Part shown: positions 25,701 to 28,700 of the stretch, piece by piece
Layout: every line of letters begins with the position of its first letter
Numbering within the stretch: position 1 is the first letter of the stretch
NCBI GenBank assembly: GCA_964016885.1
Contig: OZ024740.1
Coordinates: 45,632,001 to 45,696,000, forward strand
DNA length: 64,000 nucleotides
Source: Eledone cirrhosa
Lineage: Eukaryota
Reading direction: 5' to 3'
Notes under the pieces: generated by a model
What the model was told of the DNA's origin: nothing
Seen by the model: only the letters and a program-made list of their open reading frames with translations
Databases searched by the model: none
Program-made: the position numbers and the translations under genes

Positions 25701-28700
25701 TAAATAAACTTTATGTGTGAAGCTCGAATTTTATAAGACAATGCGGGAAGCTTAGGGACAGCAAATAACTACAATTACAGTCAGTTGCTATAAAATAGTT
25801 TATAAAAATCGGCTAAAGGCCCTTAGAGATAGAAAAAATGTCAGTGTCCCCTACAAAAGAATCGAACTTCGTATTTCCCAGATACCAGCTAGGTGGTCTA
25901 ACCAGCAAGCTAAGGTATATGGGAGATACGGGGTTCGATTCTTCGTGGCAGCTGCTGGTAACATTTTTTCCGTGTCTAAGATTCTTTACCCGATTTTTAT
26001 AAATTATGTATGTGTGTGCCGTCTTGTATCTCGAGATACACGACGACATAGCCACACATCCCTCCATTTCTTAACTTTTGAAAATCAGGAAACTTGCAAT
26101 ACTGGTAAAGTCATATTGAGAATAAACCTTCTTAAAGACTCCAATAGCATTTTAAACTTCTTTTTCCTATATTTTTACCCATGTGGATATATAAAAAACA
26201 ACTTAATTTCGAATATATATATATATATATATATATATATATATATCAAAATAAAGATCCTAAGGCATGGTATAAATTTCCAATCATTTTAATCACAACA
26301 CATGTTTCAATAAGAGATAGATCGTCGTGCGGCCATGATCGATTATCACTGATCTCGTCAGGTGAAAATGAATTGAAAATGATATGGGGGACAAAACTGT
26401 AGTGAGTGAACATCGTTAAATTTTCTCCCTCATATCAAGGATTTGAAGACAATTCATTTTCACCTGACGAGATCAGTGATAATCGATCATGGCCGCACGA
26501 CCGATCTATCTCTTATTGAAAGATGTGTCGTGATTAAAATGATTGGAAATTTATACCATGCCTTCGGATCTTTATTTTGATACAAATACTCCGTTTTACA
26601 TCATCTAGCTGTTCCCATAAATGGAATTGGAGATATACAAAAGCGTGGAGAACTTAATATTGCTAACAAAAATTTATTGGACCGCTTGACACAACCAATA
26701 ATACACCTTACTATATAACAACTATATATATATATATATATATATATATATATATATATATATATATATATATATATATATAGGAAAAGAGTCAGGATCC
26801 CGACGGCTGAGCTCCGGCCGTTTCGACAGCTAGATCCGAACTGGTGGCTTAGTTCGGATCGAGCTGTCGAAACGGCCGGAGCTCAGCCGTCGGGGCCCTG
26901 ACTCTTTTCCGATTACCTACTCTACTACCTTAAATATTGAGTACTCTGGTGCGTTATGGTCTACCTGGTATGTTACCACACCCTCTTTGTTATATATATA
27001 TATATTTCACACACACACACACACACACACACACACACACACACACACACACACACACACACACACACACACACACACACACACGTATATGTGTGTATGC
27101 TTATTTTAATACAGTGGCAAGTAATGCATTCTAGAAACAGTCAATTTCATAGATATTTTTGTTAAAGACACGTATTCTCCATTATTAGAAGTTGTAAGTG
27201 TATCAAGTCGTAGCTAGTTGTCAGTCCTGATTCAGTCCAGTATTAATATACATATAACGTAAGTGCCAATACTGGAATTGAACCATCAAGACCGTTGAGG
27301 TATGTCATAATTCATGTATTTTATCTGACGAGGACGTACTGAAAAAAACAGCACAGTACCTTCGAAATATATATAATAAAACATATGTTTTCATTTATTA
27401 ATATTCTGAATAATATAACGTAAGTGTGTATTTTCGTAAAGGTGTCTATGTATGCAGACACGAATTAAGGCATTATAATAAATGGAATAGTCCAGCAAAT
27501 AGCTCGTACAGTGTAATGTACTTCTTTCTTACTTACCATCAAACCCTGTTTTCTGTCTTGGGTTGAAACGTTTCATTTCCATGGGTGGCATGTCCATATA
27601 TTCGTTCATATCTCCAGGATATTGGTCCATATATGGATGTCGGAAGTTCATATTCTGCCCCGGAAGATTCATTTCAGTACGCTCGTGCATATCCAAAGGA
27701 TCCATGAATTCTCCATTATTGTCCATATAGTTGCCTTCGAAATCCATTGTCAAACGAGACATATCTAAAGGCTTTTCTGGATAATTCATATACATTGGAG
27801 GTCTCATGCCATCCGGGGGTCCGTAACCCATAGGCATCATATCAAACGGGGGCATCATACCATGTTTATCGAATTCTGGATAGGCACAGTATCTATTGTT
27901 CCCCTCCATCTCCGAATATTTGGACTCCGTGTCAAAAGACGAAGAATTTCGATGTTGACTTTCAATCTCTCCCTGCTTATTGCACGGATCGTTCCTATCA
28001 TGGCGATCCTCTTGCCTTTGTTCTCTTACATCTTTTTCTTTGGCCTCACATTGTTGATCCTGTGTGACCACGGGGCTTTTAGGGCGTTTCTCTTTCTTCT
28101 CCTCGTACCTAGAAATATATAACCACAAATATACTATTTACTAAATAAAAGAAAAAACAAAAGAGGAAAGAAAAAGATCCGATTGTCACATCGGAACAAG
28201 GAAACTACCGGTCTTCCAGTTACTGATACTATCTGTTGGTTGCAACTCCTGGTAGAAGGAGCAACGTGAAATAATGTATTTTGTTCAAGAACACAACGCG
28301 CAGCCCGATCTAGAAACCGAATAATGTAAAAGCGCGTGGCTTAGTGGTCAAGGTATTTAATCTACGATCAAAATGTCGTGGGTTCGATTCCTTGACTGAG
28401 TTGTGTGCTGTGTTCTTGAGCAAAACACTTCATTTCGTGTCGTTCCAGTATACACAGCTGAAAATGAGCACCAGCAGTAGCTGGGGTTTAACCCTGCAAT
28501 GGACTGGCGTCCTGTTCAAAGGGAAGTTTTGTACTTCCAGTCGCATCAGCCAAATGAGCCTCCGGGCTTAGGAAAGACTTTCTTTAGACTTTATGATCGT
28601 GAGTTCCACACCCTGACCGTTATGTGTGTCTGAATGTATGAGTGTGTGCATGTATGTGGGTATGTGTGTTTGTCTGTTTTTCCGTGCTTCTGTTCATAGT

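What the first reader, a model, noticed from the sequence alone, without database searches (positions are those of the whole stretch)
27697..27783. Reflectin N-terminal motif embedded in a transglutaminase
Seen: coding exon 3 encodes [29 protein letters not shown] and splices in phase to the TG beta-sandwich exon. Established (recalled consensus): the cephalopod reflectin N-terminal motif is about MEPMSRMTMDFQGRYMDSQGRMVDP and internal repeats begin YPERxMDMS. The ungapped match is 14 of 22 identical from MSR to DP, with xD-x5-MD-x5-MD-x5-MD spacing. Further YMD/YMDM units follow (PYMDQY, EYMDMPP). Inference: a reflectin-motif/crosslinking-enzyme chimera that could co-assemble with reflectin condensates in iridophores or leucophores and fix or modify them, or a clue to the origin or shuffling of the motif. 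I do not know of a description of such a fusion.
Basis: partly seen in the sequence, partly recalled or inferred. Interest (0 to 1): 0.92.

Follow-up and report, generated by a model that had tools for sequence, protein, structure and literature searches.

The report
Reflectin-tagged transglutaminase beside reflectin genes
Octopuses, and probably squid and cuttlefish, have a protein-crosslinking enzyme that carries a copy of the signature repeat of reflectins (the proteins behind their iridescent skin). In octopuses its gene sits next to the reflectin genes, and in a squid transcripts of this enzyme family mark reflectin-making cells, which points to an overlooked enzyme of structural colour and a new clue to where reflectins came from.

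Summary
The motif lies in spliced coding exon 3 of an intact 17-exon, 1005-aa transglutaminase (TG; Cys-His-Asp kept). A profile built only from this genome's reflectin repeats scores it at 39 bits; 0 of 5000 shuffles reach it. It is not a true N-terminal motif. It is a hybrid: internal-repeat frame, N-terminal-type core.

New here:
(1) The gene flanks the genome's five-gene reflectin cluster, and accession order shows the same neighbourhood in four more octopods.
(2) A diverged, probably decapodiform orthologue keeps the motif (17/29, against about 20% in the flanks) and carries an N-terminal-like repeat upstream.
(3) Exons 2-3 form a skippable phase-1/1 cassette.
(4) In published Loligo single-cell tables, two transcripts annotated as this TG rank 3rd and 6th among markers of the main reflectin cell cluster; both annotations also occur in a squid chromatophore proteome.

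Best reading: an ancient captured reflectin module brings the TG to reflectin assemblies, where it modifies their glutamines. That step is inferred and untested. Direction of transfer is unresolved. My paper searches found no description of the fusion, and the scan had not noted it before.

The parts
27697..27783 (-). Reflectin-type repeat (29 aa): PE-headed, P-ended internal-repeat frame with the T-MDF...DP core of the N-terminal motif
   Evidence: conservation
27537..28108 (-). Coding exon 3 (572 nt, phase 2 in, phase 1 out). Charged, Met/Pro-rich, predicted disordered; second half of the skippable cassette. The matching exon of the diverged orthologue holds an RMN-like repeat, a decayed repeat and this repeat
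   Evidence: low pLDDT for the orthologue's N-terminus
28940..29150 (-). Coding exon 2 (211 nt, phase 1 in), Pro/Gly/Met-rich; first half of the cassette, absent from the short isoforms
   Evidence: 831-nt intron skipped; P0002 and P0003 lack it
33912..34017 (-). First coding exon of the long isoform (phase 1 out). A second first exon lies outside the window at G000:C1:45,702,577 and also ends in phase 1
24815..25033 (-). Exon 4, start of the TG beta-sandwich (phase 1 in)
22468..22716 (-). Exon 5, beta-sandwich
20643..20764 (-). Exon 6, catalytic core
18920..19030 (-). Exon 7, catalytic core
15433..15607 (-). Exon 8, with the catalytic Cys579 (GQCWVF) and the upstream Trp of AWGGS
14182..14323 (-). 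Exon 9, core (Transglut_core hit), HDxD calcium-site motif
13338..13441 (-). Exon 10, with the catalytic His639 and Asp662
12079..12244 (-). Exon 11, core
4389..4489 (-). Exon 12
3574..3662 (-). Exon 13
1595..1793 (-). Exon 14, first C-terminal beta-barrel. Exons 15-17 lie outside the window at G000:C1:45,630,318-45,628,669

Best explanation
This is a coleoid-specific intracellular transglutaminase of reflectin-making cells. Its long isoform carries a reflectin module on a two-exon cassette inserted into the phase-1 first intron.

Shown: the fusion, the intact triad, splicing, the short isoform without the cassette, the neighbourhood to reflectin genes and strong constraint on one repeat.

Inferred history: the module came from the neighbouring reflectin cluster by local duplication before octopods and the diverged (probably decapodiform) lineage split; octopods then kept only the last repeat.

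Inferred mechanism: the repeat works as a sticker that draws the enzyme into or onto reflectin assemblies (Bragg lamellae, leucosomes, sheath-cell granules). When Ca2+ rises, the enzyme acts on the Gln of the YQMD internal repeats. Reflectins have few Lys, so reflectin-to-reflectin bonds are unlikely to dominate. More likely are deamidation or amine addition, which change net charge (the known switch of reflectin assembly), or bonds to Lys-bearing partners such as the enzyme's own tail or the membrane skeleton. Splicing the cassette in or out would give a reflectin-targeted and an untargeted form.
For: Homology. In one search, only 6 of 21,500 ORFs in 644 kb score over 9 bits: five reflectins and this exon.

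Neighbourhood: one search gave 28 matches (self, 26 in four neighbouring reflectin ORFs, 1 on C17). By accession order on the same contigs: O. vulgaris reflectin CAI9716227.1 next to TG CAI9716228-30; O. sinensis XP_029640368.1 and XP_029640363/5; O. bimaculoides XP_014779614.1 and XP_014779607-10; A. hians GAB1597764.1 and GAB1597766.1.

Constraint: motif 17/29 between octopods and P0014/P0037, against 17-22% before it, 12-25% after it and 68-70% in the TG body. Third codon positions are at chance level (83 of 201), so this is old and not recent conversion. The first repeat of P0037 fits 21 of 26 RMN positions.

Cassette: phases; short isoforms P0002 and P0003. The sister paralogue and Elysia TG lack the motif.

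Enzyme: triad aligned with factor XIII-A (3.2e-112).

Transcripts: X13 contig 9 has no mismatches, skips the 831-nt intron and runs on 314 nt past the exon-3 donor. P0014-type 922-aa ORFs lie on 3.3-4.0-kb contigs.

Cell type: in PMC9839350 supplementary file 1, transcripts annotated XP_014779610.1 and XP_014779607.1 are markers 3 and 6 of reflectin+ cluster 22 (83.6% of cells against 2.8% and 9.4% elsewhere); other TGs mark clusters 10, 18, 25 and 30. Both annotations are in the D. pealeii chromatophore proteome (PMC6397165 Table S1).

Substrate make-up: 11 reflectins have 6-42 Gln and 0-12 Lys.
Against: No binding, localisation or activity data exist.

Single RMN or RM peptides fused to GFP spread like GFP in HEK293T cells (PMC9986269), and octopods have one repeat only.

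The squid transcripts are named by best hit alone. The motif-bearing P0014 type and the motif-less Cys-to-Asp paralogue both hit X1 and X2 within 1 bit, so I cannot say which marker carries the motif, or whether the long isoform is the one expressed.

The weaker reflectin+ cluster 20 does not list this TG among its markers. The proteome is N=1 per colour, and muscle proteins also rise in yellow organs. I have no tissue data for any octopus.

Irreversible TG chemistry fits badly with the reversible tuning of loliginid iridocytes, yet the cell-type evidence is from a loliginid. The taxon of P0014 and P0037 is inferred. Decapodiform synteny and Nautilus were not testable.
Confidence: 0.5

Rival explanations
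1. Source, not recipient. The repeat first arose in this TG's N-terminal exon (or in a similar hybrid-repeat protein). A local partial duplication freed the exon as a stand-alone gene, which expanded into the reflectin cluster. RMN lost the PE head and the internal repeats changed T to Q.
For: The TG repeat is intermediate between RMN and RM: it scores higher on the combined profile (39.3 bits) than on either alone (26.5, 34.3). The same hybrid type occurs in P0030/P0031 and partly in the C17 protein. The gene flanks the cluster. All four intact reflectin ORFs have a predicted splice acceptor 18-19 nt before the ATG, 3 of 4 in the same phase as exon 3's acceptor (not independent, no transcript check).
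Against: The orthologue's exon already shows the finished reflectin order, RMN-like repeat first and then repeats. The symmetric phase-1 cassette looks like an insertion. The sister paralogue and Elysia TG have no trace of the motif. At least three other families took up the motif, so it is mobile. The 32-column motif tree cannot give a root.
Confidence: 0.17
2. The motif is a membrane or cytoskeleton address shared with reflectins. The enzyme's substrates are not reflectins but the membrane skeleton or cortex that shapes the lamellae, in the way TG1 builds an envelope and protein 4.2 ties the red-cell skeleton.
For: Reflectins are Lys-poor. Reflectins bind phospholipid membranes and the cytoskeleton (PMC9779258, passages). 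Cluster 22 also lists an Rh-type transporter, aquaporin, spectrin beta and talin-2. A catalytically dead sister paralogue exists, as protein 4.2 does in vertebrates (recalled; PDB hit).
Against: Single motifs showed no special localisation in human cells. Nothing here tests membrane binding. Internal repeats offer a Gln in nearly every repeat.
Confidence: 0.22
3. The motif regulates the enzyme itself, as a folded cap or activation segment like the factor XIII-A activation peptide, or as a self-association module. The link to reflectin is only historical.
For: Only the repeat nearest the beta-sandwich is conserved, at close to the level of the enzyme body. Folded alone it gives a compact model with three short beta-bridges (mean pLDDT 77).
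Against: Its distance to the TG body differs by about 29 residues between lineages. Short isoforms do without it. It does not explain marker status in reflectin+ cells.
Confidence: 0.09
4. Chance or convergence in a Met/Asp-rich disordered tail.
For: The exon is Met-rich (11.6%) and acidic. 7-residue periodic repeats in unrelated proteins do hit the profile (4 of 19 hits).
Against: 0 of 5000 shuffles in each test; rank 6 of 12 in a genome-wide search; adjacency in five octopods; a 21/26 RMN match in the orthologous exon.
Confidence: 0.02

Closest known systems
Reflectins (RefA1/A2/B1/C; motifs RMN and RM/RMI as defined in PMC9779258 and PMC7780002)
   Same: Shares the MD-x5 repeat and a 28-residue PE...P unit, sits in the same gene cluster in octopods, and its family marks the same squid cell cluster.
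   Different: One repeat (up to three in the diverged orthologue) in a 1005-aa, 17-exon enzyme. No MEPM start, no Tyr/Arg-rich cationic linkers (exon net charge -13), hybrid repeat type.
[quoted passage not shown]
   Same: Four-domain layout and Cys-His-Asp triad. N-terminal extensions that target or regulate the enzyme are known in TG1 and factor XIII-A (recalled).
   Different: The extension is a reflectin module on a skippable cassette. It forms a coleoid-only clade with a Cys-to-Asp sister paralogue. The 'hemocyte' name is misleading: in squid a different TG marks the blood-like cluster 30.
Erythrocyte protein 4.2 (catalytically dead TG of the membrane skeleton)
   Same: Analogy for the dead sister paralogue P0015/P0016; TG fold hit at 7.4e-61.
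   Different: The gene in this window keeps its catalytic Cys. The paralogue's loss is a separate change, and no partner was tested.
Proposed Vibrio fischeri transposon origin of the reflectin motif (Guan et al. 2017; seen only as cited in PMC9779258, paper not held)
   Same: Addresses the same question, where the repeat came from.
   Different: Here the full-length repeat is found in an endogenous enzyme gene beside the cluster and in three more coleoid families. The 8-residue bacterial claim is too short for my searches to test.

Membership tests
Metazoan transglutaminase | Beta-sandwich, core and C-terminal barrel domains | tested here: met
Metazoan transglutaminase | Cys-His-Asp triad and upstream Trp | tested here: met
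   C579, H639, D662 and AWGGS; aligned to factor XIII-A
Metazoan transglutaminase | Calcium-binding residues | tested here: inconclusive
   HDxDxN and NxD motifs align with factor XIII-A, some other ligands differ (site assignments recalled)
Metazoan transglutaminase | Ca2+-dependent transamidation activity | not testable with these tools
   needs an assay
Reflectin N-terminal motif (RMN) | Starts with MEPM and fits the published consensus | tested here: not met
   No MEPM; 14 of 26 positions (definitions). The first repeat of orthologous P0037 fits 21 of 26
Reflectin internal motif (RM/RMI) | M/F-D-x5-MD-x5-MD-x3/4 pattern | tested here: met
   One regex hit in this exon, O. sinensis, P0014 and P0037; none in A. 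hians (4 of 5 TG sequences)
Reflectin internal motif (RM/RMI) | 28 residues, PER-like start, final Pro | tested here: met
   PEK start, 28 residues, Pro end (sequence; definition)
Reflectin internal motif (RM/RMI) | Gln before the second MD (YQMD), as in nearly all internal repeats examined | tested here: not met
   Thr here, as in RMN
Reflectin protein family | Short block copolymer of several motifs with cationic, aromatic-rich linkers and no globular domain | tested here: not met
   One motif, acidic exon, Tyr 5.8% against 6-20% in reflectins, fused to TG. Not filed as a reflectin
Reflectin protein family | Charge-triggered self-assembly and presence in reflective organelles | not testable with these tools
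   only cell-level co-expression of the family

The most novel reading that the evidence does not exclude
Reflectins are an escaped, amplified exon of a transglutaminase (or of a hybrid-repeat ancestor that it preserves), which would give them an endogenous origin in place of the proposed bacterial one. The parent enzyme still sits beside its offspring, is made in the same cells and writes a permanent charge change or crosslink onto their glutamines, helping to set whether a reflector is static or tunable.
Probability: 0.15. Interest if true: 0.96.

Novelty: new variant of a known kind. Interest (0 to 1): 0.87.

Why it matters
Reflectins are treated as orphan structural proteins with no relatives, a disputed bacterial origin, and phosphorylation as their known switch. 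This finding ties them to an enzyme in three ways: shared repeat, conserved gene neighbourhood and cell type.

It makes three open questions testable: where the repeat came from (look at Nautilus, Vampyroteuthis and cirrates); what one repeat does in its natural setting; and what makes most cephalopod reflectors static or mechanically stable. It also shows that the repeat is a mobile module present in at least four non-reflectin coleoid families, which matters for how reflectins are counted in genomes. A matched crosslinker would also be useful for reflectin-based materials.

Tried and rejected
Complex prediction of a reflectin fragment with the TG motif region: verdict 'no answer', score 0.00 in 2 of 2 runs, alignments not used. 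No evidence either way.

AlphaFold of full P0014 with 14 sequences: mean pLDDT 47.6, not usable for docking of the motif. The model of the motif alone (pLDDT 77) had no Foldseek match at E<=0.001 and 0 of 48,161 chains at Z>=2. The motif profile against PDB sequences gave 1 hit at E=0.68.

Pfam has no hit on exon 2 or exon 3 at E<=10, and none on 15 of the 19 proteins. The ESM Atlas gave no usable hit for P0030 and only generic TG clusters for P0006.

Sequencing-run search: no RNA holder listed. X13 has no recorded library type, no DNA run was laid as control, and the stretch laid did not include exon 4.

The motif tree (32 columns) included five off-register rows caught by my pattern and was re-rooted after support was computed, so I use only the residue table and not its support values.

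DNA-level match to reflectins: best 31 nt at 84% (E=0.004), third positions 83 of 201. Recent conversion rejected.

The NRSRNM match between exon 1a and one reflectin start (16 of 2000 shuffles; 153-1468 of 2000 for the other three) and the likeness of P0015's start to a reflectin-B-like tail (1 of 1000; 139 of 1000 for P0016; BLAST E=0.023) were picked by eye and are not relied on.

Own-genome searches with P0030 and P0035 found reflectins and periodic repeats but no orthologue; these ran with a strict first look, so absence is not shown. Three other TG genes turned up in the genome, all with the catalytic Cys in the matched exon.

Four of 19 hits (P0039, P0042, P0043, P0047) were set aside as chance periodic repeats.

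Earlier scan notes: none on reflectin.
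Full report
OBSERVATION. The window is G000:C1:45,632,001-45,696,000 of a 3.0-Gb genome; its proteins are closest to octopus entries. The minus strand at 27783-27697 encodes the 29-residue motif as reported. Fitting GT-AG boundaries against O. sinensis XP_029640363.1 gives 17 coding exons, 1005 aa, no internal stop and 878 identities. The motif exon is the third (28108-27537; phase 2 in, 1 out) and joins in frame exon 4 (25033-24815), which is Pfam Transglut_N (6.4e-15). 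Cys579, His639 and Asp662 align with the factor XIII-A triad (3.2e-112; the roles of these residues are established knowledge).

IS THE MOTIF REAL? I translated the four long ORFs hit. They are ordinary reflectins with one N-terminal motif (RMN) and several internal repeats. A profile from their 26 repeats, without the TG, scores the TG motif at 39.3 bits (RMN-only profile 26.5, internal-only 34.3). 0 of 5000 shuffles reach the observed score for the exon, the Met/Asp-rich 115 residues or the 29-mer, on any of three profiles. The short isoform P0003, the paralogues P0015 and P0016 and Elysia TG gave nothing over 3 bits. A genuine RMN searched against the whole genome gave 12 matches at E<=10: five RMNs, then the TG exon (E=0.022), five internal repeats and one C17 ORF. 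The motif is not an RMN. It lacks MEPM and fits 14 of 26 positions of the consensus in PMC9779258. It has the 28-residue PE...P frame given for internal repeats in PMC7780002, but Thr where those have Gln. It is a hybrid. The later YMD units give no profile hit, and the second is not kept in 5 other octopod sequences.

IS IT IN THE TRANSCRIPT? Database models of O. vulgaris, O. sinensis, O. bimaculoides and Argonauta hians all contain the exon but are named only as hemocyte TG-like; two short isoforms lack exons 2-3. Contig 9 of run X13 matches exons 2 and 3 without a mismatch, skips the 831-nt intron at its splice sites, stops matching exactly at the exon-3 donor and runs on 314 nt. Contigs of X1, X3 and X7 stop at the same base and run on 569, 2614 and 2334 nt. 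X13 is not on record as RNA, no DNA run was laid, and the onward letters were not shown, so the exon 3-4 joint rests on the models and on P0014-type 922-aa ORFs found on 3.3-4.0-kb contigs. Both first exons end in phase 1, exon 2 starts and exon 3 ends in phase 1, and exon 4 starts in phase 1. Exons 2-3 are thus a symmetric, skippable cassette.

NEIGHBOURHOOD (new). Of 28 matches to the motif region in the genome, 26 fall in four reflectin ORFs 90-435 kb away on the same contig. In 644 kb around the gene, 6 of 21,500 ORFs score over 9 bits: this exon and five reflectins at 45.749, 45.769, 46.038, 46.094 and 46.147 Mb. The upstream first exon is 46 kb from the nearest reflectin, head to head. 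This is order of numbers, not coordinates.

AGE AND CONSTRAINT. P0014 and its cluster mates are 68-70% identical to octopods in the TG body (Octopus to Argonauta 86%), so they come from a deeper lineage, most likely squid or cuttlefish (inferred). Against them the motif is 17/29 identical, while the flanks are 17-22% and 12-25%. P0037, a genomic exon 67% identical to P0014, begins with a repeat that fits 21 of 26 RMN positions, followed by a decayed repeat and the conserved one: a small reflectin in order. Third codon positions shared with reflectins are at chance (83 of 201). A tree of 9 TG bodies places a Cys-to-Asp paralogue (P0015, P0016; its cluster holds a Sepia pharaonis entry) outside P0014 plus octopods (93/98). 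It has no motif, and neither has Elysia TG. The fusion therefore predates the split of these lineages and probably follows that duplication.

OTHER CARRIERS. A 20-sequence motif profile that included the TG and C17 motifs gave 19 hits at E<=0.001 among 1.84 billion representatives: 9 reflectins or fragments, P0037, 4 chance periodic repeats, and 5 proteins of three other families. These are 1103/1270-aa proteins with 6-7 mostly hybrid repeats, acidic 757/827-aa proteins (S. pharaonis member), and the orthologue of the C17 ORF, present in three Octopus species. Clustering at 50% hides a Nautilus TG if there is one, so the search says nothing about outgroups.

CELL TYPE (from published tables, not discussed there as far as I read). 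In the Loligo vulgaris atlas (PMC9839350: passages, supplementary file 1 part 32 and searches, file 2 part 16), clusters 20 and 22 are the reflectin+ cells. Two transcripts annotated XP_014779610.1 and XP_014779607.1, the O. bimaculoides models of this gene, appear once each in file 1, both in cluster 22, as markers 3 and 6. They are in 83.6% of cells against 2.8% and 9.4% elsewhere; reflectin A1 has 80.5% against 8.0%. Other TGs mark clusters 10, 18, 25 and 30; I saw 6 of the 10 term hits for TG in that file. In the D. pealeii chromatophore proteome (PMC6397165: passages, supplementary file 1 parts 1-2), the same two annotations have normalised counts of 3/8/19 and 2/9/16 in brown/red/yellow organs, the same order as reflectins A1, A2 and B1, which that paper places in sheath cells. 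Limits: names are best hits; the motif-bearing type and the dead paralogue both hit X1 and X2 within 1 bit; cluster 20 does not list them; the proteome is N=1 and muscle proteins also rise in yellow organs; there are no octopus tissue data.

MECHANISM. Shown: an intact TG with a conserved reflectin repeat on an optional cassette, next to the reflectin genes, in a family that marks reflectin-making cells. Inferred: the repeat brings the enzyme to reflectin assemblies. Eleven reflectins have 6-42 Gln but 0-12 Lys, and internal repeats carry Gln in YQMD, while the TG tail has 7-20 Lys in three full-length proteins. Reflectin-reflectin bonds are therefore less likely than deamidation, amine addition or bonds to Lys-rich partners. 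Net charge is the known switch of reflectin assembly (PMC9779258 and bioRxiv 10.64898/2026.03.13.711711, passages), so deamidation would mimic phosphorylation permanently (inference). Against this: single motifs fused to GFP are diffuse in HEK293T cells (PMC9986269, passages), though that was not a test of recruitment to reflectin; and permanent chemistry sits badly with tunable loliginid cells. I put this reading at 0.5, a membrane-skeleton role at 0.22, TG-as-source at 0.17, autoregulation at 0.09 and chance at 0.02. The source question is historical and can hold together with the functional readings.

WHAT IS KNOWN. Searches: reflectin + transglutaminase as whole words gave 5 unrelated papers (the word-start version was swamped by 'reflecting'); reflectins + transglutaminase + cephalopod gave 0; reflectin + glutamyltransferase + squid gave 19 unrelated; transglutaminase/cephalopod/skin/iridophore gave 185 with at least three terms, 20 listed, none on this. 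The word transglutaminase is absent from the main text of PMC6962438, PMC9068888 and PMC13218726 (passages) and from the held supplements of PMC9068888 and PMC9635652 (main text of PMC9635652 seen as passages). I read parts 1-2 of 3 of the 2026 preprint on reflectin domains. It gathered octopus sequences by BLAST with an RMN, down to 16% identity, and does not mention a TG in those parts; its closed supplement could list this protein unrecognised. So could the three 'reflectin-like' A. dux genes. Guan 2017 and DeMartini 2015 are not held; I know the first only as cited in PMC9779258. Most subscription papers were not searched. The scan's earlier notes contain no reflectin finding.

VERDICT. 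The feature is real, old, constrained and, as far as these searches reach, undescribed. It is a TG by every feature I could test and not a reflectin. The architecture is new and ties an enzyme to the reflectin system by sequence, gene position and cell type. Function and direction of transfer remain inferred. Interest 0.87.

Noticed in passing
G000:C17:13,724,824-13,727,475 (-), locus L009: An 884-aa open frame with one reflectin-type repeat (31 bits, 0 of 5000 shuffles). Uncharacterised orthologues in O. vulgaris CAI9738044.1, O. sinensis XP_036366955.1 and O. bimaculoides XP_014783164.1. A second non-reflectin carrier, off the cluster.
   Followed up: partly
P0030, P0031 (ENA and Logan, unnamed): 1103/1270-aa proteins, 57% identical, with 6-7 mostly hybrid-type repeats (the TG type), an acidic Met-rich part and a strongly conserved C-terminus. 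P0031 also has a long Gly-Pro-Met repeat that recalls reflectin C's GMXX. No Pfam or Atlas hit.
   Followed up: partly
P0035, P0036 (cluster holds Sepia pharaonis CAE1309062.1): Acidic 757/827-aa proteins with 3-4 internal-type reflectin repeats near the C-terminus; no Pfam hit.
   Followed up: partly
P0015, P0016 (cluster holds Sepia pharaonis CAE1272223.1): Sister paralogue of this TG with Asp in place of the catalytic Cys, a likely pseudo-enzyme. It may be the second TG marker of squid reflectin+ cells. That cluster also lists an Rh-type transporter, aquaporin and spectrin, which recalls the red-cell protein 4.2 complex (recalled, speculative). Not found in this octopus genome.
   Followed up: partly
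P0015 residues 1-30 against P0045 residues 180-211: Short likeness to the tail of a reflectin-B-like protein (16 of 32 identical; 1 of 1000 shuffles; not seen for P0016). It may only be shared RRxS kinase sites.
   Followed up: partly
G000:C1:46,146,693-46,147,343 (-): A fifth reflectin-like ORF at the far end of the cluster: 217 aa, two scoring repeats, looks decayed or partial.
   Followed up: partly
L002, L004, L011, L012, just upstream of the ATG: All four intact reflectin ORFs have a predicted splice acceptor 18-19 nt before the start codon, so the coding exon is a spliceable unit.
   Followed up: partly
G000:C1:297.45 Mb, C1:379.35 Mb, C19:6.60 Mb (L082-L084): Three other TG genes, each with Cys in the matched catalytic exon.
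   Followed up: no
window 54094-55710 (+): A 539-aa open frame with Walker A/B motifs, resembling a Helitron Pif1-type helicase (label recalled, no family scan).
   Followed up: no
window 16227-17099 (-) and 30657-31145 (-): Fragments resembling the zinc-knuckle/endonuclease end of non-LTR retrotransposons, in TG introns (label recalled).
   Followed up: no
window about 26790-26895 and 60235-61782: A long GC-rich inverted repeat in the intron after the motif exon, and a long minisatellite with an open frame.
   Followed up: no
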